A DNA stretch of 64,000 nucleotides from Tubulanus polymorphus (lineage: Eukaryota > Animalia > Nemertea), in contig NC_134029.1 of the NCBI RefSeq assembly GCF_964204645.1, forward strand, positions 15,680,950 to 15,744,949. Direction: 5' to 3'. The notes under the pieces are model-generated. The model made no database searches, had not been told where the DNA came from, and saw only the letters and a list, made by a program, of their open reading frames with translations. Below, piece after piece: positions 6,860 through 57,959 of the stretch (positions are counted from its first letter, which is position 1; every line of letters begins with the position of its first letter). The translations under genes and the position numbers were made by a program.

Positions 6860-7428
6860 TAAGATTTAATAAAACATTGAAAACTAGAATGTGGAAATAC
6901 TTTACTGCTAATGAAACATATAAATATATCGATGTGTTAGATGATTTAGTGAAAGGTTATAATAATTCTAAACATTCAAGTATTGGTATGAAACCTATAC
7001 AAGCTAGAAAAGAAGATAATTCGGAAATAGTTTGGAATAATTTATATGGCGCGTTTGTTACACATGATTTCGGTGAACCTAGATTCAAAATTGGACAACA
7101 CGTTAGAATATCTAAATATAGAAAAACATTTTATAAAGGTTATACCCCTAATTTTACAGAAGAAATATTTAAGATTAAAAAGATGATATTAACTAAACCA
7201 TTTGTTTATAAACTAGAAGATCTAAAAGATGAAGAAATATTAGGTTATTTCTATGAACAAGAATTATCACTTGTACCAAATCCATATGAAATAGAATACA
7301 AAATAGAAAAAGTATTGAAAACAAAAACTATTAAGGGAAAAAAGTATTCTTTGGGGAAATATAAAGGGTATGATGATGAATTTAATGAATGGATTTTATC
7401 TAGTAAAATTAAAAGAATAAATGAATAA
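6860..7428 (+). pseudogene. Polinton retroviral-like integrase, C-terminal half with chromodomain; catalytic core N-terminal part deleted
   Basis: RFNKTLKTRMWKYFT...YNNSKHSSIGMKP...FKIGQHVRIS...KGYTPNFTEEIF and a chromodomain-like tail (YKIEKVLK..GKYKGYDDEFNEWI); the first two Asp motifs of the DDE triad are absent. Confidence 0.9.
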
Positions 7429-8032: not shown

Positions 8033-8061
8033 CTATTTATAATTTGGAATATTATAGAAAC

Positions 8062-8398
8062 TAATTTATATATCTATGTACTAGACGTACGAGTAAGAAA
8101 GTAAGATTCTTGCCAAGAAAGTAAGAAAGTAAGATTCTTAGATTCTGACGTACGTCTAGTACATAGATATATAAATTATTAAATGAATTATATAAAAATG
8201 AATAAATTATATGTTTTCTCTTAATAATAATAAAAATAGATTATATTATAACTATTTCTATACTTAGATTAATGATTTTATGTTTTTAATTTTTATGAAA
8301 ACTATTATATATGTCTATGTACTAGACGTACGAGTAAGAAAGTAAGATTTCTTGGATTCTTGGATTCTTGGATTCTTACTCGTACGTCTAGTATATAG
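8062..8398. terminator. Twin hairpins between the convergent transcription units (putative bidirectional terminator/polyadenylation structure)
   Basis: 30-bp perfect stem 8062-8091/8149-8178 and 26-bp stem 8315-8340/8373-8398 with the same TACTAGACGTACG core. Function is inferred from position. Confidence 0.45.
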
Positions 8399-8440
8399 TT
8401 ATTTAAATTAGTTTTATAATAATTATTCTAATTTTGTTTC

Positions 8441-9640: not shown

Positions 9641-9683
9641 TTATTATATAAATAATATTTTTTTTTTTTTTAAAGTTAAAATT

Positions 9684-10931: not shown

Positions 10932-10971
10932 TTATTTAACAAAGAAATTAATTATTTATTTTTGATTATGT

Positions 10972-12309
10972 TTACTTGATATCTTTTGATATCATATTCA
11001 CTAACCCAAAAATAATAGCACTTACAACTGTAATTAAAAATAAAATAATATGTTCAGCAGCAAAGTTAATAATGTTTCCTGCAGATTTCAATATAAAACC
11101 AACAATTGATGCAATAACTCCTGGTAATGCTGCAGCAGATTTCTTTGATAGTTCCCATAAATATTTTGCTAATTTCTTTAAACCATCCTTAACTTTATCT
11201 TGTATAGAATTATTATCATTCGGGGGTTTATCTGGTTTATTGGGAGTAGGAGTAGATTTTAAAGCATTTGATATTGCTAAACCAATTGTTGTAAATAACA
11301 TAGTTACTGCTGTTAGAATTGAAAGAATTGTTATTCCTTCAAACTTAAATAATAATTTTATTCTATCTTTCAATGATATTCTAGAATCTGGTTTTATTAG
11401 ATATCTTTTAAAAACATCTTTTAATCTATCAATATTATAATCATATGATTTTAATAATGATTTAATTTCTTCTTTTTGTAATTCTATGTTATATTCTAAA
11501 TCATCTTTTTCTTTTTCTAAACGTAATTCTTTTTGCCTATATTCTATTTCATCAATTGCTTGACGATCAAGATCAGATTTTATTTTTTCTATTTCTTTAT
11601 TTTTATCAGTTAATTCTTTTTCTAAAGTTCTAATTTTAAAATCTCTTATACTTTTATCATGCATAATTTTATCAGATGCAAGTCTTATACTAATAATCTC
11701 TCTAATTGCTTTATCAGAAAATATATCTAAATCTTCTAATTGTTGATCTGTTGCATCAAGTAATCCCTTCGGTAAAATTTTTTCAGTTTGAACTTCTCTT
11801 GAATTAGGTCTACTAGTTTTGGAAGTTATATTCTGTTCAGAACTTGTTTCTGGTTCTAAATTATTATCGATTGTTTCAAATAATTCATTAATTCTTTGTT
11901 TAAATACTCTTTCATTTTTAATAATTTCTTGTGTTACATCTTCTATTTCATTACTATTTCTTATTCTTTTAATTCTAGATAGGTCTAACTTAAGCAAAGT
12001 TCTATCATTTATATTATATCCAGATTTTTCAAATATAGGTTTGAAATTATAAATATATTCATTATATTCTAAATTTTTCTTTAATAAATCTGGATTTTCA
12101 TTTTCAGGATCTATTCTCGATTCAGCTCCTTTAATATATTCATTTGTTGATGGGGCTTTAGAACCACTATCTGCTAAATTAGAATTATATGCTGATTCAT
12201 TACCATCATCAATATTAGTTTCTGCATCATTATAATCATCATCAATATATCCCTCATTATTATTTCCCATTTCTCCCATTTCATAATCTTCTCCACCTTC
12301 TACATCCAT
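10972..12309 (-). CDS. Polinton coiled-coil protein with C-terminal hydrophobic/amphipathic helices (putative membrane-active virion protein)
   Basis: Intact 445-aa ORF: acidic N-terminus, coiled coil, then ITILSILTAVTMLFTTIGLAI and ALPGVIASIVGFIL..IILFLITVVSAIIFGLV; directly upstream of MCP. Confidence 0.7.
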   Translation of the reverse strand: MDVEGGEDYEMGEMGNNNEGYIDDDYNDAETNIDDGNESAYNSNLADSGSKAPSTNEYIKGAESRIDPENENPDLLKKNLEYNEYIYNFKPIFEKSGYNINDRTLLKLDLSRIKRIRNSNEIEDVTQEIIKNERVFKQRINELFETIDNNLEPETSSEQNITSKTSRPNSREVQTEKILPKGLLDATDQQLEDLDIFSDKAIREIISIRLASDKIMHDKSIRDFKIRTLEKELTDKNKEIEKIKSDLDRQAIDEIEYRQKELRLEKEKDDLEYNIELQKEEIKSLLKSYDYNIDRLKDVFKRYLIKPDSRISLKDRIKLLFKFEGITILSILTAVTMLFTTIGLAISNALKSTPTPNKPDKPPNDNNSIQDKVKDGLKKLAKYLWELSKKSAAALPGVIASIVGFILKSAGNIINFAAEHIILFLITVVSAIIFGLVNMISKDIK

Positions 12310-12325
12310 TTACATAATAAAAAAT

Positions 12326-13711
12326 TTAAAATTTAATATATAATATTCCTCCGATTACAATTCCTATACAAGTTATAGCTAATTTAGCATTTTCATGGGA
12401 TTTATTATCATCATTTAGTTTAATTATATCATGTTGAATATTATCAGTTTTAATATTTTCTGATGTATTATAATCCGGTTTAGAATCATTATTTAATTTA
12501 ATATTCTTAGTTTTAGTTTCTGTTGATTGAATGTGTTTTTTATTTTTTTCGCATTAATTTTGGAGCAGTAATTATCTTTTTATTTATATCATTCAATCCA
12601 AATGAATTATTAATTGTTGCACTTTTAATTAGATTATTGTAACCAATTATGTTTCCCATCTTTAATACTAAATCATTAGAAATAATTAATAGATTAGGGC
12701 CTATACAATAATTTAATCTAATATGTGATTTATCTAAATAATTTTGATATCTAACAATGTTTTCTGGAATCGATCTATTTGTATCATTATGTATGGAATC
12801 TTCAAATAAAACTTTAAATTGTTTTTGTGTATCGAATGATGTCTTCAAATTTCCAATTATCGGGGATCTTGTTTCAACTTGTGCGCCTAGAATACATATC
12901 AAATAAGTTCTAATAGATTGATTTATTCTTTCTATACCTGATTTAGTAAAACCTTCACTATTTTCTAAAATGAAATAAACCCAACCATTATTGTTTTCTT
13001 GTTTTAAATGATAATAAAATTTCGGTAATTTATTGAAATTTAATGTTTCTAAATCCTTTGTTTCTATTTTACCATAACCTAATTTATTATTATAGATATT
13101 ATAAAAACTATTAGATGGTATGGGAAGTGCACAATATTCTGCAATCTTTTTAGGGCAAGGAAGTGATCTTATTGTTCCAATTTTTGTTCTAAAATCAGAA
13201 TTATTTATATCTATATTAAATTCATTACAAATTTTATAAAACTTTGATAAATTAATATAATTATCTAATTCTTTAAAATATCTAGATCCTGGTAAAGCGC
13301 ACTCTAATTCATTTAATATTATTCTGATTTGAAAGTATGTATGAAATCTAAAAAACTTTGAATTAATTTATATTTAGAATTATTCAAATGATCATTCCAA
13401 CTAATTCCACAACCTGTTGTTGCACAATAAACAGCAAAATTTAATTGGTTCTGCCAAAACTTCATATAAGATTTTTATAACCATTGTTTTTCATCTTTCA
13501 ATTTTTTAAAATTAATTAAATATACATGAAATATATTTTCCATCATTGCATTAAAATTATTAGTTTCAGTAACATAAATTTCTAAATTAGTTAATGAATC
13601 TAAAACTTCATTTCTATATGTAATATCTTTATTAAAATCTTTTTCTGGAATATTATATTTAATTGATTTATTATATTGGAAAGCTTTTTGAAAACTATCA
13701 ATTTCTACCAT
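12326..13711 (-). pseudogene. Conserved Polinton gene of unknown function with C-terminal membrane anchor (frameshifted)
   Basis: Fragments 13475-13711 and 12540-12902 plus intervening WQNQLNFAVYCATTGCGISW; collinear with the less damaged homolog at 62437-63739. Confidence 0.75.
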
Positions 13712-13727
13712 TTATATAATAAAAAAA

Positions 13728-14163
13728 TTAATAATTTATTAATTCTTTTAATAATTCATCTTGTTCTTCAACTGTTATATGGCCATTTAAACTTATTATA
13801 TAATCTAGTGTATTCTTTAATTTATTAATTTCTTTTATATTAGTTTTAATTTTTTCTTTATTACTTTTTATATTTAATGTTGAACTTATACCAGTTAAAA
13901 CACTTGAACTTAATCCTAATACACCAATTGATATAGCTAAAGGTGTTAATGGACTGAATATTGCTAGAAATGTTATTACAGAACTAATTGTAACCGAACC
14001 ACTTATAATCAAATAATATATAATTTTACTTTTTAAATATTTTTTTCTTTTTAACCTTTAAATCACTTTCAAATTCTTATATTTGTTTTTCGAAATATGT
14101 TTTTAATTTAGTTTTATTTATATCATGAGGAATAATATCAATATTATCAACTTTATCTTCCAT
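13728..14163 (-). pseudogene. Small two-TM Polinton protein (frameshift near 14045)
   Basis: ATG at 14163 in TAAATG context; the 94-aa ORF holds two hydrophobic segments; homolog at 63756-64000. Confidence 0.6.
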
Positions 14164-14247
14164 TTATTTAGCAAAAAAAATTACTAATTAGTAAATTTAT
14201 ATGCTACAAGTATAACAATAACTGTTCCACCTAAAATCCAAATTATT

Positions 14248-14604
14248 TCATATTTCAATTTCTTTACTTGGAGTATAATAATCTGATAATTTGGGTTTGT
14301 ATAGATGTAATTTTTCTTTATTTGTTACCGCGTTATATAAACTCATTGCATCATCAACTGATTGATAATCTCTATGTGAAATCTTCTGATCATATAATTC
14401 TTTGTTAATATAATCCATATAATTTTGCCTCTTTTCTCTATATTCTTCTGCTGCTTTATTGTATTTCTCTAATGCTAAGTTATGTCTTCTTTGTTCTCCT
14501 AATGAACTATTTTTATCAATATGCTTAAATGAATAACCGCCACCAGTAAATGCTAAAGCGTTAACAAATGCCGATCCTATAATAGTTATAATTGCAGAAG
14601 CCAT
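14248..14604 (-). CDS. Small Polinton protein with hydrophobic N-terminus and helical body
   Basis: 118-aa ORF MASAIITIIGSAFVNALAFTGGGY...EQRRHNLALEKY, TAAATG start. Confidence 0.7.
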   Translation of the reverse strand: MASAIITIIGSAFVNALAFTGGGYSFKHIDKNSSLGEQRRHNLALEKYNKAAEEYREKRQNYMDYINKELYDQKISHRDYQSVDDAMSLYNAVTNKEKLHLYKPKLSDYYTPSKEIEI

Positions 14605-14677
14605 TTATTTAGCAAAATAATTGCGCATTTATATGGGAGGAATATATTTTTGTTTTTCTAAATAATCAATAGTTAAA

Positions 14678-14851
14678 TTAGATTAAAGTAACTGCTAATG
14701 TTAACTTTAAAATATCATTTATATCAAATCTATCAACATTAACACTTCCCATTTTAAATACTTTTTTTAATACCATTGAATAACCAACAGTTCCAACTGA
14801 TAGTAATGCGCCATTATATAATCCAGTTATTATCCACTTATTATCACTCAT
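14678..14851 (-). CDS. Small hydrophobic Polinton protein (57 aa as read, probably truncated by a frameshift)
   Basis: Manual translation MSDNKWIITGLYNGALLSVGTVGYSMVLKKVFKMG...; TAAATG start; below the ORF-track cutoff. Confidence 0.55.
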   Translation of the reverse strand: MSDNKWIITGLYNGALLSVGTVGYSMVLKKVFKMGSVNVDRFDINDILKLTLAVTLI

Positions 14852-15002
14852 TTATTTATCAAAAAAATTACTCAAAAATTCATCAAAATATTTAGTTATC
14901 TTATTTATGATTAATTCAACATTTATTTCATTACTAGTTTCATTTGTATATATTTCAATTATTATTTTTTTAATATCATCGATGATAAAATCTTCATCTA
15001 AT

Positions 15003-15215
15003 TCATAAAATCTTAAAAGATTCTCTAATTAAATTAGTAATCTTTTCTACATTTAAAGTTTCTTTATCCATTGTTGTTTCATACTCAAATGTTGTTTCAT
15101 TAGAAAATGTAATATTTTTAATATGTGTAATTACATCATTAACGTTAAATTTCATTTCTTTCTCATGTTTAAAATCAAACCCAAAACATATACTCGGTCC
15201 AACAGTTATATTCAT
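15003..15215 (-). CDS. Hypothetical Polinton protein (possibly truncated)
   Basis: 70-aa ORF with TAAATG start inside the gene array. Confidence 0.5.
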   Translation of the reverse strand: MNITVGPSICFGFDFKHEKEMKFNVNDVITHIKNITFSNETTFEYETTMDKETLNVEKITNLIRESFKIL

Positions 15216-15231
15216 TTATATAGTGAAAAAC

Positions 15232-15985
15232 TTACTCTTTACATCCTATAACTAATTCATATATCACAGGAAAGTTATTCAAATCAATTAAATAACCATT
15301 ATGATTTCTTATTTCTAATCTAAAATTATTAAGTTTAGGAATGCAAGGTTTAAAATCACATTCTGTTAAATTATAATTTATTTGTGTTCCAAATTGTTTA
15401 ACATTTTTTAGCGGTAAAATATTTAGTATACTAGAACTACAAATTGTTTCTTTAGTTGCTTCGAAAGTTTTTGTAGGCTCGATTAAATTGCAATAAATAT
15501 GAAAGTGTGTAAAAGGTATTATATTTGAGCTGCCTTCTGCGTTTCCAGTAACTGTAAGAGGTTTAATTCCTAACATTTTAGCCAGTGGTTTGTTTACCAT
15601 AAATTTATGTTGTTCATTAGATATCTTTATTCTTATTTTATTAGTACTATCAATTTTATTAAATTTAATTTCAAATACAGAAGCGCCCGATTTTCAACCG
15701 AGCTCTTCTATTAATTTCCTGCGCTAATGATTCTAAATTATATAATCCTGGTTTTAAAAATATTTGAAACCATTTATCTTTATTTCTCATATAAATCATA
15801 AACCCTCTATGTTCAAAAGTTTTATCCGATATATTATGAAAAGAATTACATAAACTTATATTTACTAATTTTAAATAAACACAATTCTTGAATTCTCTAT
15901 CTAATTGAACTAGTAAATTATGTGATTTATAATTTGTAAGCCTTCTAGAATCAACAAATATTCTGTATTCTTTTAATTCTACCAT
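15232..15985 (-). pseudogene. Minor capsid protein (penton, single jelly-roll), split by a frameshift near 15670
   Basis: YRIFVDSR..NSFHNI..KPGLYNLESL..HIYCNLI..ILNILPL..LEIRNHNGYLIDLNNFPVIYELVI pattern typical of Polinton mCP. Confidence 0.8.
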
Positions 15986-15999
15986 TTATGCTACATATT

Positions 16000-16341
16000 T
16001 TATTCGAAATCTATTTCATGGTGCCCTTTTTCATTCTTACCTTTGTATACGAAATAGAAATCTCCAGAACATAATTCTTTATGAAATCTATGAAATCTAT
16101 CCGGTAAATATATTCTGAATTTATATGTATTTCCTTTTAATCCTTCATATTCTAAGTGTATAACTAATTTATCTCCATAGTTATTAGTAACTGTATCAAT
16201 ATTTGTAATTAGATATTTCTTATGGATTGTTAATTCTGTTAACTTTTTGAATTTATAATCTACAGATTTTACATTTGTTATATCTTTTATTCTATCTAGA
16301 AATAATTTGCTGTTCTCACTGTGTGTTTGTTTACTCTCCAT
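16000..16341 (-). CDS. 113-aa Polinton protein, possibly OB-fold/SSB-like
   Basis: Intact ORF downstream of pPolB (FKKLTEL..KYLI..YGDKLVIHL..YLPDRF..FVYKG). Fold assignment is a guess. Homologs lie in both TIRs of the relic at 52690-60884. Confidence 0.6.
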   Translation of the reverse strand: MESKQTHSENSKLFLDRIKDITNVKSVDYKFKKLTELTIHKKYLITNIDTVTNNYGDKLVIHLEYEGLKGNTYKFRIYLPDRFHRFHKELCSGDFYFVYKGKNEKGHHEIDFE

Positions 16342-16370
16342 TTATAATACATATTTTTATTAAAATTTGA

Positions 16371-19300
16371 TTAACACGTTAGAATTCTTTTCATTATCTC
16401 GTTCTCTTTTGTTTCTTCTCTTTTAAATTTTAAGTATTGATCTAAATTACAACCATATGCAACTGTATGAATTCCATCATCTAAAATATATCTTTTATCA
16501 TCAAATGGGTTTAGACTTATCTTTTCAATTTCTTCAATAAACATTTCATGATCTTCAGATCTTAAACATCTCATCTTATGTTTTCTAACTTCTTCATTGA
16601 ATATACAATTGATGTAATCTTTGAAATGAATATTCTTTTCTACTACACTTTTGGTTATTCCTTTTAACTTTTTAGCTTCATGTTCTTTAGTTTTATATGA
16701 ATACATTTTAGATCTAATACCTATGAACTCTATCATTTCTTCACCGCCTAATTCATCCTTAAACTTCCCTGGAACTTTTTTATTATCATTGCTAAACAAT
16801 TCATGATCTTAAGGATAATTACTAAAATCAAAATGATGTTTTAATGTTTTTAAATCATCTGTTATGTTATCAGTTTTTATCTTTAATATGTAACTGTCGG
16901 TATCAAAATATAATATTTCTATATGTTTTTCTCCAAAAAGTGGTTGTAATACATTATAATAGAATTCATACATTAGTAATTTTGATAATTCTAAAACTGA
17001 AGCGCCAACATAGATTGGTTTATTAAATTTCATTGATGTTCTTCTCATCTTAACTGCGGCTAAATTTTCATCAAATATTCTGTCACCAATGAACTTAGGA
17101 TATGATTGTAAATGTCTAATTCTTTTATCATTACTAACTAACTCAATATCATTTCTATTTCTAATATTTTCACAAGTCTTACCATAGAATGCATTGTTCA
17201 TTAACTTGAAGGAATCTTTCTCGAAATCAGTTTTAGCTTCAGTTCTCTGTTTGGTGTTTGGTAAAATCTATATATTTTTCTAACCACTTAGATTGACTGA
17301 ATGAAATATATCTATGTACTTTTTTTAGAACCATTCCTTGTTTTAGATAAAACTTCAACATTCTATAATGTACTACATAATTATATTTATCTTCTTGAGT
17401 TACCATTAACTTTTCTGTATGAATATGATTTTCGGGTTTAATTCTTTTTTGGTAATTTGATAATTCTTCATGAGTAACAGTTTTATGTTAGGACAGTTTT
17501 TTTGTTAGGACAGTATGCTAGATTTCTAGATTTAAATTTTTTATCTTCAGGATATTCTAAATCTACAACAAAGAAGTAACCAGTATCTGAATCATCTGCA
17601 ATATCTAGAATTCTTTTCTTCCAATCAAATTTATCATTATTTTCATTCTGTAAAACTTCAGTTAATTCAAATACTCCATAAGGTTGTGGTTCCATCATTG
17701 CCCAACCATACAAATTATTTGCATCTATATATAATAACTTATATCCAGGGTTATCATTTACATTGAAATATCTATCACCTAATACACCTGAAACTCCTCC
17801 TCTTATAGATTTTTCAAATAATAGTAATTGATCTATATTTGTTAACAAATCCATTTTTATATCTGTAAATTTTAATCCACAATCCCATGTTAAACCTGGA
17901 CTAGAATAACAATGACATGGATCAATGTTAAAATATTTTAGGTTTACATCTCTAAACCTTTCAAATATATCGGTTAAAAATAATACATCTGATTTTAGAT
18001 ATGAATCTACTAATTGTCCATGATTTTCTATTTTGAAATGATTCCAAATACTCAATGTTCTATTATATACTTCATCTTTAACATATTCATTTTTTAATTC
18101 ATCATAGAATTGTTCTTTCAATAATTCAGTTATGTTAAAATCATTATGATTTTTATAGAAAGAATATGGAATTGCGCCTTTATATCTCATTAATTGAAAA
18201 TCATCATTATTTGGATAGTGTTGCTTTAATATTTTAAATTCATCATCAACTAATGATTTTGATAAGTAATCTAATGAACTATTTAAAAATCTATATGAAT
18301 CTATAAATCTTAGGCAACCAAATTGGAATGATATATAATTCTCAGATGTTTTAGCTAACATTCTAAATTTATAAGTTGGTATTTTATCTTTTGATCTATT
18401 TGAATTTAATCTTTCTATTTCATTATTGATTTCTTCTATTTTATGGCATAACTGTTTGATAAATAAATGTGCATCATATCCTGATAGATTATGAAATATA
18501 ACTGGTACAAAATTAATTTTCTTAGCTTGCAAATTGCAATTCTCATGCGCAGCGCCTCTAAACTTTCCATTCAAATGATCATGGTCTCTTACTTTTTTAT
18601 CTTTATAATTAAATATCTTTTCACAATAATAACATTTATCTGCAAACGCAAATGCTTCTTTATCTTCTTCTGTCATTATAATTTCTATATTTGTATTCAA
18701 TAATTTACTAAATCTTATTTCATATTCAATTAATAAGTCACAAAAATGATTGATAACATTTTCATTTCTATAATGATAATATTCACTTTTGATTAGTTCT
18801 GGATAATCAGATTTTATATATAACCCGAAAGCAGCAGCTGATTGATGAATCTTTTTAATAGTATTTGTTTTTGGTGGTTCATCTGAAAAATCATTTTCAT
18901 TAGAATTTAATTTCTTTCTTTTATAATATATTTCTTTTCTATCTTGATCAGTTAATTCTTTATTTAATGATTCAAAATCTCCATATATTACAAATGGTAC
19001 TTTATTTTTGTAATCATATTTTTTGAATTCTAATATTTTATCTTTTTCATTTGGTAAAACTAATTTACAATAATCATGATTTTCACATAATTGTTTATGA
19101 TTTAATAATGCACTTTCAGTTCTGGATTTATGTAAACATTTTCTACATAGATATATTTTATTATCAAAATCATTTTCTGATTTGAAAAATAAATCAATTC
19201 TTATAATCCACATATAATGATTCTCATAATATAATATATCTATAACATCATTTGAATCATAATCTTTTGATAGATATAAAGGTTCTAATGTATAATGTTT

Positions 19301-20431
19301 TATATTGTTACCTTTTGTATTTGGCAATTTTATTAAATCAAATACATTTATTTTTAGATTATTATCTCTTTCTATTTTTGGGACGTTTTTAATTATAACA
19401 GGATACTTATCTATCTTATAATTATTTTCAAATGGTTTATAATGAGTTAATCTACAAATATTATAAGTTGCAGGATGTAAGCAACTAATTATTGACCATA
19501 GAAAACATTTATCATCAGAATTTTGTACATTTATAACAGCATTAGTTTTGTTTGGTAATTTGATATAACTTGATCCGTTAATATTATCATCTTTATGATA
19601 TGATGAATTATTTTCATCAATTGGTTTTGATTTAGTTAACTTATTAACTTATTATTTTGTGTTATAAACATGTAAAGTCATAAATATTATTTCATCAAAT
19701 ATTAAACTAGATCCTTCAAATTATTTCTCTTCTATTTTAGTTTTTACTTCATTATAACATTTATCTAATTTATCATCTATATGTTGTTTAGATATGATAT
19801 GTTGTGAATGAGAATTTATATTATATATTGGTTTATCTTCAGATTTTATAAACTTTACTTTAACTGATATACTAATTTTAGGGTATTCAACATCTGTAAT
19901 TATTTTTATAATATTTTTCATATTTTCTAAATGTTTTTTATTTTCTTCTAATGTTTTTCCTTTATGAAATTTAAACTCAATAGCTGCTGGGCCAATATCA
20001 CTTTTAAATGCTTCGGTTATCTCTATATCTTTTTTATTATCCAATAAATTAATATATTTTCTTACATCTTCCATGTATGGTCTTTTATTGTTTAATTCAT
20101 TTCTTATTCTTTTAATTGTCTTCTGTTTCTTATCATTATCTTTATCAAAATAATCTTCACCTAAAATATCATTATTCTTATTTCTAATATGACTTTTAGA
20201 TTTTAAATGTTCATTATAATATCTTTTATCACTGAACGATTGATTACATGTATCACATTTGTATGTTTCTTTTTCATTCTTTAATTCATCTAATTTAGTT
20301 TCTAATATAACATCTTTATATTCTAGTTTCAATTTATTCTCTAAATGTGTTTTAGTTTTATTGTGTCTTGCTTTTTGGGATTTATCTATATTGATTTTAC
20401 ATGTTGGGCAGTAGTACTTATTTGCTTCCAT
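16371..20431 (-). pseudogene. polB: Protein-primed family B DNA polymerase (N-terminal Zn fingers, OTU-like region, EndoVII-like insert, exonuclease, polymerase), several stops/frameshifts
   Basis: ExoI VIYGDFES, ExoII FHNLSGYD, ExoIII YLKSDV, motif A YIDANNLYGWAM, motif B MNNAFYGK, motif C YFDTDS, EndoVII-like CYYC..RDHDHLNGKFRGAAHENCN, and NVQNSDDKCFLWSI. Confidence 0.95.
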
Positions 20432-20949
20432 TTTAATACAAATTTTTTTTTTAAATTGATTTTAGAAGTTCAATGATATATAGGTTCAAATAGAATCATG
20501 TTCTAGTATAAACAGCTATGCATTATTTCAATCACACTTTAATAATATTTTAAGAGTAATAGGGGTTTAGTTGGTTCAGGTTAAAGGTTGAATGGTCGAC
20601 TTCATTAAAAACAAATATTAAAAGTAATTTAAAACTATAATATATTTTCATAACCGTGTGTACTTCAGTTGAATAATAGAATAATTATTATTATTTGAAT
20701 ATATTCGATTATATGAATTTGTGTATTGTAAATAAATCAATTGGTCGCGGAGCGGAGCGGCAGCGAAGTGGAGATTTAATACAATATGCTTTTTAAATGA
20801 TTGATATCTTAGAATAAATATTTAGTTATAATATAAAATGTACACGGTTATGAAAATATATTATAGTTTTAAATTACTTTTAATGTTTTGTTTTTTGAAT
20901 GAACTCGACCGTTCGACCTTTGATCTGAACCAACTAAACCCCTATTACT
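20318..20949 (-). repeat. Polinton right TIR (internal palindrome 20555-20949; includes pPolB start codon at 20431)
   Basis: Reverse complement of 6200-6820. Confidence 0.93.
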
Positions 20950-28945: not shown

Positions 28946-30918
28946 TCATGTAGTGTGATCTTTGGGGCAGCTAAAATGGGTTGTCTTTTCCTGTAAGGAT
29001 ATATTCCCAGAAACTGAACATTATCGCCACATAGCCTATACCATCTTAACTATTTTAAAACATCGTTACTATGTAAATCTTTCACTAAAACTTTGAATAC
29101 TGAATCATTCTTCTTCTTCTGCGTCATGCAGGTATAAGGCCCGCTTGTTACTGAATCGATCGACCAATATTTACATGAACTTGTTCAGTGTTACCAGGCT
29201 CACCAAACGAAGTGATTCATACGAGGGTAGTATCGTTCATATCAATAAATCATCACATTCCGCAGTGTTGCCAGACTTCCGGAAATTTCCGGAGTTCCGG
29301 AAATCGAAACTTTCAAAAAAAAATCCGGAAATTTTCTTCTCCGTACTGCGCGAAAATGCCGTTAATTTTTATTAGAACGGCCACCCATACGCATTCGCTG
29401 TGATGATTGCACCACCACCAATCGTCATGACGACGCCGCGCAGCTCTGCGGTCGAGCGGCTTTTGTGTAAGTATACAGAGTAGTGCTTATAACTTTATTG
29501 ATTTTATACTCGAATGTGTATTGTAAAATTTTGGAGTTCAATAAACTTCTGTACTGTAACCACGACTTGACTTGCTGATGCGCCGCGCTTGTATTAGATC
29601 ATCTTTATCAGAGCATTCATAGGTACGTCCCTTCAAGTTACACATCTATGATCATCTATATAGGCTTAGGCCTAAACTATCTATGATCCGTCCTTTTTTG
29701 AATGTTCAATTTTTTTATTTTCAATAGGCCCGTATGCGATAGTTCCCCGGAAAATGAGTTTACCAAGAATTGTTGATCGGCAGAGCTCCGACTTAAAAAC
29801 TATCGATGTAGCTATAAAAAACAAATTTAGGTGGAATTGGTTAGAGGAAAAGGATTTTCATGGTGATTTCTTGTCCGATTACATACGTAAACTCGAGGAA
29901 GGTGGCCTCGCGTATTGCTTGATATGCAAAGAAATTATTAAATACGGTGGTTGAGGAAAACGGGACATAGTAAACCACGCTAAAAAACAAAAGCACACGC
30001 AAATTAGAAAGGATCTGAAAAGGAATGAAGAACTACCCGCAAGCTACCAGCCGATCATTTCAACTGAAGGCAATGAACCGTCCACTAGTAACAGTTGTAG
30101 TACTGGTAGCTTACCAATGCCATATGGGGTTGCCCCGAATGTTCCTGGTGTCCAAGGAGAAAATCGCGATATCAGGCCGAAATTCGTACCAACTATCGAC
30201 AGAATATCCCATGCACAGGCCATGACTCTATCGTTCATAGCTGAGAACTCTCTCCCAATTTCCATGTCCGAGAAGTTGATTAAGTTTGCTAAGGAGCTCA
30301 GTCGCGATGAGAAAGCGGTTTCGCAGATTACGATGGGAAGAACGTGTGCTACGTACAAACTAAAAAATGGCCTGAGTACGCACATCCGCAAAAATGTTGT
30401 GGCTGATATGCGGAAATCGTTTTTCTCGATTAATACCGATGAATGCACTGCATTAAATTTCGAAAAAGTGTTCAGCATCCTGACTTCATATTATAGTGAC
30501 GAACTTGAACGGTGCGTAGTAAATCACTACACCTCATCATCGATTTCCCGAGTCAACGTGGCGTCAGTTACAGAATTAGTTCTTAGTAAACTGAAAGCGG
30601 ACGAAATACCACTGACCAACATAGTTTCAAGTTTGTCCGACTCAACCAACTATATGCGAGGCAAGGTCAGTGGGTTTGAGACAAGACTGCGTGAAGCGTC
30701 AGTAATAGGGGTAATGGGCTTTCATACCAAAGGTCGAAAGGTCGAGCTCATAAAAAAACAAAATATTAAAAGTAATTAAAAAACTATAATATATTTTCAT
30801 AACCGCGTGCATTTTATATCAAAACTAAATATTTATTCTAAGATATCAATAATATAAAAAGCATATTGTATTAAATCAATTGGTTGCGAATTTATTTTTC
30901 ATTTTCTACTCGCTAGAA

Positions 30919-31136
30919 AAAGTGTGAGTAAAGTGTGAGTGAAATAATTCATATTTTAACAGATTTCGAGTAAAAATATAAGTAAAATAAATGGATAACT
31001 AAAAGAATATAAAAGTGTGAGTAAAGTGTGAGTGAAATAGTTTATATTTTAAACATATTTCAATATTTATATTTGTATGAGTTAGATTTTTAAACATTAA
31101 AGTGTGAGTAAAGTGTGAGTGAAATAATTCATATTT
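30919..31136 (+). repeat. Three spaced direct repeats AAAGTGTGAGTAAAGTGTGAGTGAAATA (mirrored at ~35640-35855)
   Basis: Copies start at 30919, 31012 and 31099. Confidence 0.85.
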
Positions 31137-31199
31137 AAAACATTGAATATTTATATTTATATGTGTTGGATTCATTTTAATAAAAGTTTTGTTATTAAA

Positions 31200-31823
31200 A
31201 TGAAGACAGAAGAAGAAGAAGAACCCAACTTTAAAATCGAAATCAATGAAACCAATAAATCATTTTCACAGTTTTACATTAAAAATTATATTTCAGCAAC
31301 AAATTTAGTGTCCGCAAGACATTATAAAATCGATAATATTACTATGATTAATCAAATATTATCAAATGAAACATATTTACTTACTGAACTAGTAGATACT
31401 TTTGATAATGGCGTTAAAAATCCTAAAATATTCAATACAGTTTTAAATTTTAAAGGAACTTTAGATGAAAACATAATTAATATTCTTAAAACTCCTTTCA
31501 ATGAAAGAAATGATGATATAATACTTTCAAAAGATTACAATGATTTGATTGACTTAAGAATTGAAAGAAGACAATTATATTATTTCAATTTTGATAATAA
31601 ACAAATTATCTATAATGAAAATTCATCAAATATTGGAATTCAATGTGAATTAGATAATGAAAAATCATTTAAAGATATTGCAGTTCAATGTAATTTAGAT
31701 GATGAATTTAGAAAATTCAATCCTAATGAAAAAGTGCATTGTTATTGCGGAGGTAAATATTTAAAATCACATAAATCAAAGCATTATGAAACAATTAAAC
31801 ATAAAAACTGGCGTAAAGAGTAA
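31200..31823 (+). CDS. Palindromic element ORF1, 207 aa, C-terminal CxC..H..H zinc finger
   Basis: MKTEEEEEPNF...HCYCGGKYLKSHKSKHYETIKHKNW; start chosen at ATG 31200 because its upstream 25 nt match the Polinton TIR start context. Confidence 0.7.
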   Translation: MKTEEEEEPNFKIEINETNKSFSQFYIKNYISATNLVSARHYKIDNITMINQILSNETYLLTELVDTFDNGVKNPKIFNTVLNFKGTLDENIINILKTPFNERNDDIILSKDYNDLIDLRIERRQLYYFNFDNKQIIYNENSSNIGIQCELDNEKSFKDIAVQCNLDDEFRKFNPNEKVHCYCGGKYLKSHKSKHYETIKHKNWRKE

Positions 31824-31875
31824 CAATTCTACATTATAATTATTGAATTGAGTTAAAAGATTTAAATATCTAATA

Positions 31876-32112
31876 GACTGTTAAAATGATAAATTGTTTG
31901 ACAGTTGAAATGATAAATGATTTGACAGTTGAAATGATAAATTGTTTGACAGTTGAAATGATAAATTGTTTGACAGTTGAAATGATAAATGATTTGACAG
32001 TTGAAATGATAAATTGTTTGACAGTTGAAATGATAAATTGTTTGACAGTTGAAATGTTAAATTGTTTGATTGTTGAAATGTAAAATTGTTAGACTGTTGA
32101 AATGTTAAATTG
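31876..32112 (+). repeat. 21-bp tandem repeat, about 11 copies (mirrored at ~34661-34897)
   Basis: GACAGTTGAAATGATAAAT(TG/GA)TTT units, degenerate at the edges. Confidence 0.92.
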
Positions 32113-32197
32113 TTTGTTTGAAAATTTAATTGTTATTTGATTTGAAACATATAAATATTAAATATTTTATAAACTGTTTAATTTTTCTCTTAAATAA

Positions 32198-32416
32198 ATG
32201 GATGGTTTCATCCCAACTGGGAAAAGTGATTTGAAACATTATTTAGTTGCTGGAGGTTTAATATTGGCGGCATTATACTTTTACTATGAAAATATTTCAA
32301 AAGATTTGATGAATGAAAATAATAAATTGAGTAAAAAATTAAAGAAGTTAAATGGAAACAATCACAGAAATAAAAAGAATAAAAAAGTTAATTTAGAAAA
32401 TGATTTAGAGGATTAA
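32198..32416 (+). CDS. Palindromic element ORF2, 72-aa single-TM protein with basic tail
   Basis: YLVAGGLILAALYFYY hydrophobic stretch followed by K/N-rich tail; TAAATG start; identical in both arms. Confidence 0.65.
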   Translation: MDGFIPTGKSDLKHYLVAGGLILAALYFYYENISKDLMNENNKLSKKLKKLNGNNHRNKKNKKVNLENDLED

Positions 32417-32454
32417 AACAACATCTTTTAATTTCATATATTTTGACTATAAAA

Positions 32455-32757
32455 ATGAGTGAAAATATATTAAACTTATTACATCTAATATATAAAAATC
32501 AACAGAATATTAAATCAATTATTATGCTTACAGGTTTATTTTCATTCTCAGTTTATAGTATAAAACAGTTGTTAGAATTCTATGATTGCTGTAAAATTAG
32601 ATACACTGAATTAATAGAAAATATGAATTATATTTCAGATAGATTGAATAATATTAAATGCTGTGAAAAATGCAATAAAAGATATAAAAATAAAAAGAGT
32701 TTGAGAAATCACATGTATATTCATGAACTTGATGAAAAATTATATGAATCAAAATAA
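32455..32757 (+). CDS. Palindromic element ORF3, 100 aa, hydrophobic segment plus C2H2 zinc finger
   Basis: IIMLTGLFSFSVYSI then CEKCNKRYKNKKSLRNHMYIH. Confidence 0.68.
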   Translation: MSENILNLLHLIYKNQQNIKSIIMLTGLFSFSVYSIKQLLEFYDCCKIRYTELIENMNYISDRLNNIKCCEKCNKRYKNKKSLRNHMYIHELDEKLYESK

Positions 32758-32819
32758 GAAATCGACTGTTAAATTAGCTGAAAATATAAAATATATTAGT
32801 TGAAATGTATTGTATACTA

Positions 32820-33314
32820 ATGGATGAGTGGATGAATTGGATGAGTTGGATGAATTGGAAGAGTGGAAGAGTGGATGAGTGTAACAGAAGTAATTTATGT
32901 TTTAATTCATTCAAGTATGATATTTTAAATTCTTTACACTTGACTAGGATAATACTAGAGTGATATTAGTTAGTTGGCTTATTCAATAAGAGAAACAATG
33001 AAATAATACAAGAGTGATACTAACAGTTAAAGTTATTGAATTTCTTGTTAAATCTATTTGAATTCTAGTCAATTCTTGTTAACCAATAGCGTGAATAGAA
33101 ATCAAAAAGATTTAAATAAAAAAACAATAAGTTACATCAGTTAGAACCTTTATTATTTTTTAATTACTTCTGAGACTACAATTTCCATATGAATTTAAAT
33201 TTATAAAATAAAATCCTAATTCAAAATATTATAGAATTCACTGTATATTGATGGATGAGTGGATGAATTGGATGAGTTGGATGAATTGGAAGAGTGGAAG
33301 AGTGGATGAGTGTA
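32820..33314 (+). repeat. Two identical ~64-bp purine-rich blocks of TGGA(T/A)GA(G/A)T units (32820-32883 and 33251-33314; mirrored at ~33459-33522 and ~33890-33953)
   Basis: ATGGATGAGTGGATGAATTGGATGAGTTGGATGAATTGGAAGAGTGGAAGAGTGGATGAGTGTA occurs twice per arm. Confidence 0.85.
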
Positions 33315-34015
33315 ATAATATATAATTTACATATGTTTTTTATTTTTAAAACAGTAAGAGTTTGATTTGAAGTTATTTTATCAATTTTATACTATATTTA
33401 AATATTATTAAAATAATATATATATTGTATTAAATTTAATAAAGAATATAAATATTATTACACTCATCCACTCTTCCACTCTTCCAATTCATCCAACTCA
33501 TCCAATTCATCCACTCATCCATCAATATACAGTGAATTCTATAATATTTTGAATTAGGATTTTATTTTATAAATTTAAATTCATATGGAAATTGTAGTCT
33601 CAGAAGTAATTAAAAAATAATAAAGGTTCTAACTGATGTAACTTATTGTTTTTTTATCTAAATCTTTTTGATTTCTATTCACGCTATTGGTTAACAAGAA
33701 TTGACTAGAATTCAAATAGATTTAACAAGAAATTCAATAACTTTAACTGTTAGTATCACTCTTGTATTATTTCATTGTTTCTCTTATTGAATAAGCCAAC
33801 TAACTAATATCACTCTAGTATTATCCTAGTCAAGTGTAAAGAATTTAAAATATCATACTTGAATGAATTAAAACATAAATTACTTCTGTTACACTCATCC
33901 ACTCTTCCACTCTTCCAATTCATCCAACTCATCCAATTCATCCACTCATCCATTAGTATACAATACATTTCAACTAATATATTTTATATTTTCAGCTAAT
34001 TTAACAGTCGATTTC

Positions 34016-34318
34016 TTATTTTGATTCATATAATTTTTCATCAAGTTCATGAATATACATGTGATTTCTCAAACTCTTTTTATTTTTATATCTTTTATTG
34101 CATTTTTCACAGCATTTAATATTATTCAATCTATCTGAAATATAATTCATATTTTCTATTAATTCAGTGTATCTAATTTTACAGCAATCATAGAATTCTA
34201 ACAACTGTTTTATACTATAAACTGAGAATGAAAATAAACCTGTAAGCATAATAATTGATTTAATATTCTGTTGATTTTTATATATTAGATGTAATAAGTT
34301 TAATATATTTTCACTCAT
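34016..34318 (-). CDS. Mirror copy of ORF3
   Basis: Protein identical to 32455-32757. Confidence 0.68.
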   Translation of the reverse strand: MSENILNLLHLIYKNQQNIKSIIMLTGLFSFSVYSIKQLLEFYDCCKIRYTELIENMNYISDRLNNIKCCEKCNKRYKNKKSLRNHMYIHELDEKLYESK

Positions 34319-34356
34319 TTTTATAGTCAAAATATATGAAATTAAAAGATGTTGTT

Positions 34357-34575
34357 TTAATCCTCTAAATCATTTTCTAAATTAACTTTTTTATTCTTTT
34401 TATTTCTGTGATTGTTTCCATTTAACTTCTTTAATTTTTTACTCAATTTATTATTTTCATTCATCAAATCTTTTGAAATATTTTCATAGTAAAAGTATAA
34501 TGCCGCCAATATTAAACCTCCAGCAACTAAATAATGTTTCAAATCACTTTTCCCAGTTGGGATGAAACCATCCAT
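34357..34575 (-). CDS. Mirror copy of ORF2
   Basis: Protein identical to 32198-32416. Confidence 0.65.
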   Translation of the reverse strand: MDGFIPTGKSDLKHYLVAGGLILAALYFYYENISKDLMNENNKLSKKLKKLNGNNHRNKKNKKVNLENDLED

Positions 34576-34949
34576 TTATTTAAGAGAAAAATTAAACAGT
34601 TTATAAAATATTTAATATTTATATGTTTCAAATCAAATAACAATTAAATTTTCAAACAAACAATTTAACATTTCAACAGTCTAACAATTTTACATTTCAA
34701 CAATCAAACAATTTAACATTTCAACTGTCAAACAATTTATCATTTCAACTGTCAAACAATTTATCATTTCAACTGTCAAATCATTTATCATTTCAACTGT
34801 CAAACAATTTATCATTTCAACTGTCAAACAATTTATCATTTCAACTGTCAAATCATTTATCATTTCAACTGTCAAACAATTTATCATTTTAACAGTCTAT
34901 TAGATATTTAAATCTTTTAACTCAATTCAATAATTATAATGTAGAATTG

Positions 34950-35574
34950 TTACTCTTTACGCCAGTTTTTATGTTTAATTGTTTCATAATGCTTTGATTT
35001 ATGTGATTTTAAATATTTACCTCCGCAATAACAATGCACTTTTTCATTAGGATTGAATTTTCTCAAATTCATCATCTAAATTACATTGAACTGCAATATC
35101 TTTAAATGATTTTTCATTATCTAATTCACATTGAATTCCAATATTTGAGGAATTTTCATTATAGATAATTTGTTTATTATCAAAATTGAAATAATATAAT
35201 TGTCTTCTTTCAATTCTTAAGTCAATCAAATCATTGTAATCTTTTGAAAGTATTATATCATCATTTCTTTCATTGAAAGGAGTTTTAAGAATATTAATTA
35301 TGTTTTCATCTAAAGTTCCTTTAAAATTTAAAACTGTATTGAATATTTTAGGATTTTTAACGCCATTATCAAAAGTATCTACTAGTTCAGTAAGTAAATA
35401 TGTTTCATTTGATAATATTTGATTAATCATAGTAATATTATCGATTTTATAATGTCTTGCGGACACTAAATTTGTTGCTGAAATATAATTTTTAATGTAA
35501 AACTGTGAAAATGATTTATTGGTTTCATTGATTTCGATTTTAAAGTTGGGTTCTTCTTCTTCTTCTGTCTTCAT
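34950..35574 (-). pseudogene. Mirror copy of ORF1 with a +1 frameshift at ~35064 that removes the zinc finger
   Basis: Left GAATTTAGAAAA versus right GAATTTGAGAAAA; protein ends DDEFEKIQS*. Confidence 0.65.
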
Positions 35575-38500
35575 TTTAATAACAAAACTTTTATTAAAAT
35601 GAATCCAACACATATAAATATAAATATTCAATGTTTTAAATATGAATTATTTCACTCACACTTTACTCACACTTTAATGTTTAAAAATCTAACTCATACA
35701 AATATAAATATTGAAATATGTTTAAAATATAGACTATTTCACTCACACTATACTCACACTTTTATATTCTTTTAGTTATCCATCTATTTTACTTATATTT
35801 TTACTCGAAATCTGTTAAAATATGAATTATTTCACTCACACTTTACTCACACTTTTTCTAGCGAGTAGAAAATGAAAAATAAATTCGTGACCAATTGATT
35901 TAATACAATATGCTTTTTATATTATTGATATCTTAGAATAAATATTTAGTTTTGATTTAAAATGCACGCGGTTATGAAAATATATTATAGTTTTTTAATT
36001 ACTTTTAATATTTTGTTTTTTTATGAGCTCGACCTTTCGACCTTTGGTATGAAAGCCCATTACCCCTATTACTAGCGTCGCCACAGCTACTTGACATAGA
36101 CGGTGACGTTTGCCACCACATTCACAATTCCGTTAAAAACTTCTGTTCACACTTCGACACGATCGCCGAGAAACTAGCCGACGATATGCACACCGATTTC
36201 AAATATAGTCCAGACCTTCGTGATGCACTGGCCGAATTGTGTCAAATACTGGGAATCCCGTATGTCATCCCAGCCCAGCGCATTCCCCACCGCTGGTTGT
36301 CGGCATTTGACGTAACTGTTAAAAGCCTAAAGATCATCGAAGGGCTTTCCCTGTTTTATTTCACTTGGATACCTGAGAAGGCGAATTACCAAGAATTGAT
36401 TGTTAACATTCTCAGATCCGTTCCGGCAAATGCAAGAAAAAGGGTCTACGAAATCATCGGCGAGTTAAAAAAGAAAGATTTGACCTCTGATGGACGGAAC
36501 AGAAAAATGCGCATTGTAGATAAACTGTTTTTCAAGCGACGTGAAACCCTGATCATCATGTATTTTTACTCGCGAGTTCTTCCGTTATTCAAGTCGTTCG
36601 TTTTGGCATTCGAGAGTAGTGAGCCAAAAATGCACAAACTGCACGATAAACTCTGTGATCTAATGAGCCATTTTCTCTGTTGTTTTCTGAAACATGAAAC
36701 AGTATCTGGATTGTCAGCACGGAAACTGCTCACGCTAGACTGTACAAAAAACTACCTACCCGTTAATGAGATGTACGTCGGAGAGGAGGCAAAGCGATTG
36801 TTGGCAAAGTGTGATGTAACTGATCGCAACAGAATACTGTTAAAAATTCGAGGTGCATATACTGAAGCAGCAACGTATCTACAGAAAAAGTTACCGCTGG
36901 AGAACAAAGTTCTACGTTACATGTCTGCATTGGACCCTGAGGCCATGGGTCATTCGGATACGTGCACTGCTCTGAAGAGACTTGTGGCTTTCTTTCCTAC
37001 CGTAATCATGCCAGATGACCTTGATAGCCATGATTCTTACAAGTTAGAGTGCAGCAAGTTACAGTCAGACAAAACACTTCCACCTTGTGATGAAAACACT
37101 CGCCTTGACACGTGGTGGACAGACATCTTCAAAACGAAGAAATATCCTACACTGGCGAAGATTGTCAAAGCAGCAATTAGCGTCTTTACTGCACCTCGCA
37201 TTGAGCAATCGTTTTCAGCTATGAATGACTTGATCGATAAGAAGTCAAACCGGATGGCCACTTCAACGTATGCCGCTATACAGAACGTAAAATACAACCT
37301 GAAGTCACGCCAGACAACAACTCTTGAACTCTATCACCGAGAAAACATTCCCCAAAGTCCAGTAAACCGAGACATGGTGTAACACATGCAAACAGCTTGT
37401 GGCCGTCACAAGCGGCAACGGCAGGAGAAGCAACAAGCTCAGCTGGCAAAGAAACGAAAATTAGGACTAGATTCCATGGTAGCAACTGCTCCTGTTCTGT
37501 TACGACCAAAGATTGTATCCAGGAATAAGTCGAAGTCAATTGTTCGAAAACGAGCCACATTGTCAACTGCAGGTAGCCGACGAACCGTACATGAACTTGC
37601 CAAAGAGGCAAAACAGCGAATTATGAAAGCGGTCTTGGCGAAAAATAAGAGAAAAAACTAAAATGTTTACCGTGGTTAGTATGTTCCGTTGTTCGTATCG
37701 TTTTCACAGTCATTGAAGAAGGCATTTTCCATAATGAATAATAAAATGATAAATCATAGTTGACAAAATATGTGAATAAGTGTTTATTTTTTAATTTTCG
37801 TAATTTATTTCTGAACGCAAATTCCTTACTGAACACATTGATGCATAATATTCACGGATAAATTGATTATTAACGAAATTTTAAATATTTCCTTGCCAAC
37901 TAAGCGCTCAAGCGCTACGATCTTGAATTTGTGAGCGTTCATCGGCGCATTTGAACTGCAATAATTCAGGACTCGACCCGTAATGCGTGAGAAGATGCTG
38001 ATCGTCAACGAATGAGGATGTACCACATTGGAAATAGCCATTACCTTCCAGAATATAATAAGTTGTTCGTGGGTTCACGATCGCTCTAAGTGCTCGGAAA
38101 ACGCTTCTAATTTCTGAAATTTTCTTGGGGGGAGGGACCCCCAGACCCCCCGAAATGGCTTCGCGCCTTCGGCGCTCGCAAGTTTGTGTATGTCAATAAA
38201 TACTTCCGGATATAGCTAAGCTAGGTGCTGGCAACACTGATTCCGGGTACCGTTAATGGAAAGATGCATGCGGTGCCTTGTTGGTACAGGGTATCCCCGC
38301 GAGACAAAAAGGGTTATTATTCATAGTGAAAATAAAGAAATTCCGAGTTATTGGAAAAATCCCCAATTCCACGTTTCCAGAAATGACAACACCGCTTAAA
38401 GACCTACTCGGACTTTTGAAAAAGTTCTTCCAATGCTCGATCTTCCCATTTAAAACATAAAAATCCTGAAGCTCCAGTACTTTCCATTGATATCATTGTA

Positions 38501-57950: not shown

Positions 57951-57959
57951 TCTAATAAA

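What the first reader, a model, noticed from the sequence alone, without database searches (positions are those of the whole stretch)
30701..36073. Candidate Polinton satellite: a 5.4-kb gene-carrying palindrome with Polinton ends
Seen: the element is one inverted repeat (2.62-kb arms, 130-bp AT-rich spacer at 33322-33451) with a 6-bp TSD. Its ends and first ~180 bp (AGTAATAGGGG..AAAGGTCGAA.GGTCGAG.TCAT..AAAACTATAATATATTTTCATAACCG..GCATATTGTATTAAATCAATTGGT) match the outer arm of the Polinton TIR at 6200-6382. Inside there is no pPolB, integrase, ATPase or capsid gene, only three small ORFs and repeat arrays that match nothing in any Polinton copy in this window. Known: Polinton integrase makes 6-bp TSDs, and pPolB initiates at TIR ends. 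Inference: this is not a simple deletion derivative but a separate parasite that borrows the Polinton's polymerase, integrase and perhaps capsid, analogous to transpovirons or viral satellites. A displaced single strand would snap back into a full duplex with a ready origin, which could give it a replication advantage.
Basis: partly seen in the sequence, partly recalled or inferred. Interest (0 to 1): 0.95.

Follow-up and report, generated by a model that had tools for sequence, protein, structure and literature searches.

The report
Gene-carrying snap-back Polinton satellite
This 5.4-kb mirror-image insertion has the ends of a virus-like Polinton transposon and is likely a folded-back, defective copy of a Polinton's left half that would spread on the Polinton's enzymes, carrying three small genes of which one shows signs of being kept by selection.

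Summary
The palindrome is real. Its 2,621-bp arms differ at 9 sites around a 130-bp, 90%-AT spacer, with a 6-bp TSD, inside an otherwise in-frame hAT transposase gene. Its 187-bp ends are 89% like the Polinton terminus.

A TIR-adjacent motif, the 3' tail of the packaging ATPase (83% over 77 bp) and the module-plus-AT-spacer layout follow the order of the Polinton's left gene module. The fold therefore sits where the parent's two modules converge. Best reading: a copy-back (snap-back) derivative of a sister Polinton family, now a non-autonomous family.

Reads from a second study show roughly 7-15 ORF2/3 arms and 33-47 ORF1 arms, but only 2-3 spacers, per single-copy depth. All 7 listed ORF2 variants are synonymous, and ORF3 has a 66%-identical homologue. 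Whether the genes serve the satellite or come from an unseen autonomous Polinton is open, because no assembly was available.

This scan has already noted six palindromic Polinton satellites in other genomes (five gene-less), and a palindromic Polinton-like insert was reported in salmon in 2008. Verdict: new variant of a known kind.

The parts
30695..30700 (+). left 6-bp target-site duplication
30701..30887 (+). left terminus: outer arm of the Polinton TIR hairpin only (inner arm absent); presumed origin and integrase site
   Evidence: 89.4% to 6200-6385; alignments
30918..31172 (+). about three 87-93-bp repeats, each with the 24-bp motif found just inside the Polinton TIR hairpin; likely promoter region
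   Evidence: motif-to-ATG distance 90 bp here (ATG at 31200) and 110 bp in the Polinton
31161..31823 (+). ORF1, 220 aa (207 from the second ATG); C-terminal CxCG..H..H zinc-finger-like motif; N-terminal part unassigned
31876..32116 (.). 24-bp minisatellite, 10 copies
32198..32416 (+). ORF2, 72 aa, hydrophobic segment then basic tail; 7 of 7 listed variants synonymous
   Evidence: no homologue
32455..32757 (+). ORF3, 100 aa, hydrophobic segment plus weak C2H2 zinc finger; one 66%-identical homologue (P0015)
32811..32884 (+). purine-rich module, first copy, after the ORF3 stop
   Evidence: 97% to 33242-33315
33144..33236 (+). relic of the packaging-ATPase 3' end (33162-33236), preceded by a ~22-bp inverted piece of the adjoining ATPase sequence
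33242..33321 (+). purine-rich module 31 bp after the ATPase-relic stop (30 bp in the Polinton); sequence not homologous to the Polinton's module
33322..33451 (.). 130-bp 90%-AT spacer, the fold point; the Polinton's equivalent is 124 bp and 89% AT (8179-8302)
33452..36073 (-). right arm, mirror of 30701-33321; its ORF1 copy is frameshifted near 35064, ORF2 and ORF3 proteins are identical to the left copies
36074..36079 (+). right 6-bp target-site duplication
30117..37382 (+). hAT transposase gene interrupted by the element
   Evidence: Pfam hAT dimerisation domain; frame continuity
6200..20949 (.). co-resident, degraded Polinton (own 6-bp TSD; pPolB, ATPase, capsid-like and integrase-remnant ORFs); relative of the inferred parent or helper, not the parent itself
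8033..8440 (.). Polinton convergence region: two stem-loop modules around a 124-bp AT spacer, between the + strand and - strand gene modules

Best explanation
The element is a palindromic, non-autonomous Polinton derivative, likely born when the Polinton polymerase copied the left gene module of a sister Polinton and folded back at the AT-rich spacer where the parent's two gene modules converge. Shown: palindrome, TSD, Polinton terminus, TIR-adjacent motif, ATPase tail and spacer layout in the parent's order, multi-copy reads, and synonymous-only variation in ORF2. Inferred: integrase and most of the ATPase were replaced by ORF1-3. A helper Polinton's pPolB primes at either identical end, the displaced strand snaps back into a full hairpin with a duplex origin, and the helper integrase inserts the product with a 6-bp TSD. 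Copying through a hairpin would regenerate both arms from one template, which fits arms 99.7% alike while only 96 of 918 family reads are 99% or more like this copy. ORF2 and ORF3 are predicted small membrane-anchored proteins and ORF1 and ORF3 carry zinc-finger-like motifs. They most likely act on helper transcription, packaging or cell exit; this is untested.
For: Colinearity of four landmarks with 6200-8440. The ATPase-tail match beats all 300 shuffles. Stop-to-module distance is 31 vs 30 bp and the spacer is 130 vs 124 bp. All ORFs face inward like the Polinton's left module. In run X5 (second study; about 12% of the run read), arm depth is 58-264 against 2-9 in the six lowest flank bins, and 1,220 reads run off the terminus into mixed flanks (agreement 0.35). 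Inner-arm depth exceeds spacer depth: 3.9-fold in X5, and 1,559-2,062 vs 1,108 for listed X1 contigs. 7 of 7 listed ORF2 variants are synonymous (p 4e-6 to 3e-4 by null). No indel row falls in ORF2 or ORF3 (3 of 3 rows non-coding). Snap-back genomes holding one half of a viral genome are described for AAV (PMC8235507, passages).
Against: The purine-rich module and spacer are similar in layout only; 127 of 300 shuffles match the alignment score. No ORF has a relative in the window's Polintons, so the parent is unseen. Spacer depth in X5 equals only 2-3 copies against 7-15 ORF2/3 arms and 33-47 ORF1 arms, and X2 has zero depth over two spacer bins. This may reflect AT drop-out or divergent interiors, but most arms may also sit in other structures. 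Loose ends show ORF3 in other contexts (24 reads before 32453, 45 behind 32810, 22 before 32881). Only 2 of 6 listed ORF3 variants are synonymous. The variant table showed 40 of 127 rows. Many of the terminal loose ends can come from ordinary Polintons. No read across this copy's hAT junctions was among the rows shown.
Confidence: 0.65

Rival explanations
1. The arm is the ordinary gene-carrying long TIR or terminal region of an autonomous Polinton elsewhere in the genome, and this copy is a plain internal deletion. The selection signal then belongs to that Polinton.
For: ORF1 depth is 3-4 times ORF2/3 depth and about half of pPolB depth. Butterfly Polintons with ~2-kb gene-carrying TIRs are described (bioRxiv 10.1101/2025.02.07.637071, passages). 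Vertebrate Mavericks have accessory ORF regions flanking the core (PMC8097293, passages).
Against: Such a TIR would have to contain an ATPase stub plus the central module twice. The Polinton TIRs seen in this window (6200, 20949, 52701, 60884) begin with a 340-390-bp hairpin that the element lacks. None of the six listed X5 loose ends or the listed joints shows the arm's inner end (33321) running into other sequence (130 further loose-end rows not shown).
Confidence: 0.15
2. One reading: an independent satellite, akin to transpovirons, that acquired Polinton ends and borrows polymerase, integrase and capsid.
For: ORF1 and ORF2 have no full-length homologue in 5.8 billion proteins. ORF1 shares only a zinc-finger motif with other proteins; 4 of its 14 hits carry a GIY-YIG domain. 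ORF2 looks constrained. The central module is not homologous in sequence.
Against: The ATPase tail, TIR-adjacent motif and spacer layout lie in the parent's order. There is no helicase or other replication gene.
Confidence: 0.12
3. A cooperative sub-genome or segment: it supplies accessory proteins that the Polinton family uses, as proposed for AAV snap-back genomes.
For: Constrained ORF2 and conserved ORF3. AAV snap-back genomes modulate rep and capsid expression (PMC8235507, passages).
Against: No expression or functional data. Copy numbers of the parts do not match one another or pPolB.
Confidence: 0.05
4. Assembly or library fold-back artefact.
For: Reads across both hAT junctions were not seen in the rows shown. 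The spacer is thinly covered in X5 and partly uncovered in X2.
Against: The arms differ at 9 sites, the flanks are not mirrored, there is a perfect 6-bp TSD, and the hAT frame resumes on the far side. X5 reads cover the spacer-to-right-arm boundary (depth 12.6 then 5.6, no read fitting two places).
Confidence: 0.03

Closest known systems
Autonomous Polintons/Mavericks of animals (PMC8097293, PMC3014272, bioRxiv 10.1101/2023.08.22.554363; passages read)
   Same: TIR-type termini, 6-bp TSD, AT-rich intronless ORFs facing the centre; the parent has two converging gene modules
   Different: 5.4 kb instead of 13-25 kb; no pPolB, integrase or capsid gene and only an ATPase stub; the whole element is one inverted repeat
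Palindrome-containing Polinton-like insert upstream of Chinook salmon gh1 (PMC2584663, passages read)
   Same: a long palindrome assigned to a Polinton
   Different: that insert is ~20 kb with a 10-kb palindrome; the passages give no family, gene content or mechanism
AAV snap-back defective genomes (PMC8235507, passages read)
   Same: self-complementary molecule holding one half of the parent genome and dependent on helper enzymes
   Different: different virus class and replication chemistry; here the form is integrated with a TSD, amplified in the genome, and carries genes absent from the visible helper
Transpovirons (PMC5499653, listing and start of abstract only; gene content recalled)
   Same: small linear TIR-bounded parasite of a larger DNA virus
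   Different: no helicase gene; descends from its own helper; integrated in an animal genome
Palindromic Maverick satellites noted earlier in this scan (unchecked AI notes)
   Same: whole-element palindrome with Maverick ends; 6-bp TSD named in three of the six
   Different: five of six are described as gene-less and 11-18 kb; the sixth (5.1 kb) has one small gene and no spacer; none of the lines shown maps the fold point to the parent's convergence spacer

Membership tests
Autonomous Polinton/Maverick | protein-primed PolB gene | tested here: not met
Autonomous Polinton/Maverick | retroviral-like integrase gene | tested here: not met
Autonomous Polinton/Maverick | capsid, protease and ATPase genes | tested here: not met
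   only a 77-bp ATPase 3' relic
Autonomous Polinton/Maverick | TIRs and 6-bp TSD | tested here: met
Non-autonomous Polinton derivative | termini shared with a co-resident Polinton family, no replication or integration genes | tested here: met
   89% over 187 bp
Non-autonomous Polinton derivative | several dispersed full-length copies, each with its own TSD | tested here: inconclusive
   multi-copy depth and mixed flanks in reads; no assembly held
Non-autonomous Polinton derivative | mobilised in trans by Polinton enzymes | not testable with these tools
   inferred from termini and TSD length
Snap-back/copy-back defective genome | self-complementary, one parental end duplicated, colinear with one half of the parent | tested here: met
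   (colinear at four landmarks; the ORFs between them are unrelated)
Snap-back/copy-back defective genome | free or packaged form; interference with the helper | not testable with these tools
   needs extrachromosomal or nuclease-protected DNA
Transpoviron | own superfamily 1 helicase (recalled; linked to transpovirons in the title of PMC5499653) | tested here: not met
   no such Pfam match in ORF1-3
MITE / Foldback element | non-coding, ends of a cut-and-paste transposase family (recalled) | tested here: not met
   three ORFs, constrained ORF2, Polinton ends

The most novel reading that the evidence does not exclude
A defective snap-back Polinton genome has become a true satellite with its own gene set. 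ORF1-3 exist only in helper-dependent palindromes, are maintained by selection there, and act on the helper's expression, packaging or cell exit. This would be a germline-fixed record of the step from defective interfering genome to gene-bearing satellite of an animal endogenous DNA virus, with the fold point marking where pPolB switches template.
Probability: 0.3. Interest if true: 0.82.

Novelty: new variant of a known kind. Interest (0 to 1): 0.57.

Why it matters
To my knowledge (recalled), replication of animal Polintons has not been shown directly, and the panhandle strand-displacement model rests on analogy. A palindromic derivative whose fold maps to the parent's convergence spacer gives a specific, testable template-switch site. 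It also predicts a 2.7-kb hairpin or 5.4-kb linear free form. If its genes are selected within the satellite, animal Polintons have their own gene-carrying hyperparasites, which supports their behaving as viruses. The interest is tempered because palindromic Polinton derivatives recur across animal genomes in this scan and one was mentioned in print in 2008.

Tried and rejected
Whole-genome search was not possible, because no assembly is held.

ORF1: no homologue among 73 candidates and none in viral contigs. Atlas hits were 0.85 or lower, so leads only. The single-sequence fold had pLDDT 33.8, so no fold search was run. The idea of a degenerate GIY-YIG nuclease was rejected: the N-terminal 165 aa scored 1.2 bits against a four-sequence GIY-YIG profile, and 179 of 498 reported shuffles did as well.

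ORF2: no homologue; best Atlas hit 0.77. ORF3: nothing in viral or metagenome contigs; P0015 is a singleton with no name or context. A terminal motif found nothing in viral or metagenome contigs.

No RNA holder was listed, which says nothing on expression. No earlier notes exist for this genome, and the one sequence look-alike was unrelated. The minisatellite frame (65 aa at 31886) was rejected as a gene. Kapitonov and Jurka 2006 is not held. Repbase entries and bioRxiv supplements could not be seen, and a palindromic non-autonomous Polinton may be described there.
Full report
OBSERVATION. Self-BLAST shows 30701-36073 as one inverted repeat. A global alignment of the arms gives 8 substitutions and one single-base indel over 2,621 bp, around a 130-bp spacer that is 90% AT. 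The same six bases flank both ends. The element sits in a hAT transposase gene (Pfam hAT dimerisation domain) whose frame has no stop across the empty site and continues into the ORF at 36186. With arms only 0.3% apart, the insertion is young. The first 187 bp are 89.4% identical to the terminus of the Polinton at 6200-20949, which has its own 6-bp TSD. That Polinton's TIR opens with a 383-bp hairpin (z -22.6, 0 of 100 shuffles fold as well), and the element carries only its outer arm. Each arm has three inward-facing ORFs of 220, 72 and 100 aa. An artefact is unlikely: the flanks are not mirrored, the arms differ, and the TSD and hAT frame are intact.

The interior does contain Polinton DNA. 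A 24-bp motif just inside both Polinton TIR hairpins recurs three times upstream of ORF1 (7 window matches, 0 in 100 shuffles). It lies 90 bp before an ATG, against 110 bp in the Polinton. 33162-33236 is 83% identical to the last codons and downstream DNA of the packaging ATPase (7983-8059; E 3e-16; ATPase by Pfam Pox_A32; score 88 against a maximum of 42 in 300 shuffles). A ~22-bp inverted piece of the adjoining ATPase sequence precedes it. In the Polinton the ATPase stop is followed after 30 bp by a stem-loop module, a 124-bp 89%-AT spacer and a second module. This is where its + strand and - strand genes converge. In the element the relic stop is followed after 31 bp by a purine-rich module, the 130-bp spacer and the mirror image. 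Module and spacer agree in layout, not in sequence (127 of 300 shuffles match). One arm thus reads terminus, motif, genes, ATPase tail, module, spacer, which is the order of the Polinton's left half. At 83-89% identity the parent is a sister family, not the copy in this window.

IS IT A FAMILY? No assembly is held. Of 10 runs listed, 4 from one study hold the stretch or part of it, and X1 may be the window's own source. I laid 3 of the 10: X1, X2 and X5, the last being raw genomic reads from a second study, about 12% of the run, laid at 92% likeness. The six lowest flank bins of X5 have depth 2-9 (mean 5.6). Against a baseline of 5.6-8, pPolB gives 62-89 copies, the ORF1 region 33-47 arms, ORF3 10-15, ORF2 8-11, the inner arm 7-10 and the spacer 2-3. 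1,220 reads leave the terminus into mixed flanks, though many may be ordinary Polinton ends. Inner-arm depth exceeds spacer depth 3.9-fold in X5, and 1.4-1.9-fold among the listed X1 contigs. This is the direction a palindrome predicts, but AT drop-out inflates it and the tool warns that contig depth is no copy number. Only 96 of 918 X5 reads are 99% or more like this copy, so copies differ far more than the two arms do. Against a uniform family: joints and loose ends show variants lacking 32759-33244 and ORF3 in other contexts, and ORF1 is 3-4 times deeper than ORF2/3. I saw no read across this copy's own hAT junctions in the rows shown.

ARE THE GENES REAL? One search listed 40 of 127 variant rows. 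All 7 in ORF2 are synonymous (expected share 0.17-0.31; p 4e-6 to 3e-4), although several may mark one subfamily. 2 of 6 in ORF3 are synonymous. All 3 indel rows lie outside ORF2 and ORF3. The one indel shown in ORF1 is 3 bp, with 12 of 56 rows shown. ORF3 has one homologue, 66% identical over 87% of its length, from a 1-kb contig (1 of 2 candidates). ORF1 matches 14 proteins, 13 of them only through its C-terminal zinc-finger-like motif; 4 of the 14 carry GIY-YIG, but ORF1's N-terminal part does not score as GIY-YIG. ORF2 and ORF3 each have one hydrophobic 19-residue window (1.27 and 1.48). So ORF2 and probably ORF3 are real genes. Whether selection acted in the satellite or in an unseen parent cannot be told from these data.

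MECHANISM. From established pPolB biology (recalled), the polymerase primes at a terminus and displaces the other strand. I infer that a polymerase coming from the left end of a sister Polinton switched template at the structured, AT-rich convergence region and copied back, giving a molecule with two identical left ends. Integrase and most of the ATPase were replaced by ORF1-3, before or after this event. Such a molecule keeps origin and integrase sites at both ends. Its displaced strand would anneal over its whole length, so both arms would be rebuilt from one template in each round, and the helper integrase would leave the 6-bp TSD. Packaging and any replication advantage are untested. Confidence 0.65; rivals are listed separately.

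COMPARISON. It fails membership of autonomous Polintons (no pPolB, integrase or capsid gene), transpovirons and MITEs. It meets the tested features of a non-autonomous Polinton derivative and works like an AAV snap-back genome (PMC8235507, passages). Converging modules and accessory ORF regions are described for vertebrate Mavericks (PMC8097293, passages). Gene-carrying 2-kb TIRs are described for butterfly Polintons (bioRxiv 10.1101/2025.02.07.637071, passages). A 20-kb Polinton-like insert with a 10-kb palindrome was noted in Chinook salmon (PMC2584663, passages). Anolis had no apparent non-autonomous copies (PMC3014272, passages). Listings from eight searches and term searches in PMC6431247, PMC11296320, PMC9341512 and bioRxiv 10.1101/2023.08.22.554363 (passages) showed no description of a gene-carrying palindromic Polinton family. 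Kapitonov and Jurka 2006 was not held, and Repbase and preprint supplements were not visible. I recall, without a call, that Repbase lists non-autonomous Polintons. Earlier notes of this scan describe six palindromic Maverick satellites in other genomes (unchecked), so the architecture recurs.

VERDICT. Real, recent, multi-copy; a new variant of a known kind. What this case adds is the mapped fold point and the constrained cargo gene. Interest 0.57; the satellite-with-own-genes reading has probability 0.3 and would merit 0.82.

Noticed in passing
window 6200-6582, 20555-20949, 52701-53041, 60518-60885: These Polinton TIRs begin with a 340-390-bp imperfect hairpin whose two ends both look like element termini, so each TIR contains a complete mini-palindrome (z -22.6 for the first). 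Reads also show hairpin tips on the element's own type of terminus (122 reads at 30887/30888).
   Followed up: partly
window 30701-31050 and its mirror: 6 of the 8 arm substitutions lie in the outer 350 bp (post-hoc p about 1e-4); two look like CpG decay. This may mean the arms are corrected from the centre outward.
   Followed up: partly
window 52690-60884: An 8.2-kb scrambled Polinton derivative of another family with different terminal letters and a 5-of-6 TSD, immediately followed by an 11-bp terminus of the 6200 type ending at 60900.
   Followed up: no
window 6200-20949: This Polinton is itself defective: only the integrase C-terminal part remains, directly after the left TIR, and pPolB is split over several ORFs. 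It lies between BEL/Pao-like retrotransposon ORFs (family labels from sequence appearance).
   Followed up: no
window 32811-32884 and 33242-33315: The purine-rich module occurs after both the ORF3 stop and the ATPase-relic stop, as stem-loop modules do after the converging Polinton stops; a possible transcription-termination signal. An older 72% inverted repeat (33030-33133) lies between them.
   Followed up: no
window 61160-61280: Short stretch that reads like a calcium-binding EGF exon of a host gene (seen, by eye).
   Followed up: no
window 61700-64000: A further degraded Polinton fragment, 80-97% like 9248-13975.
   Followed up: no
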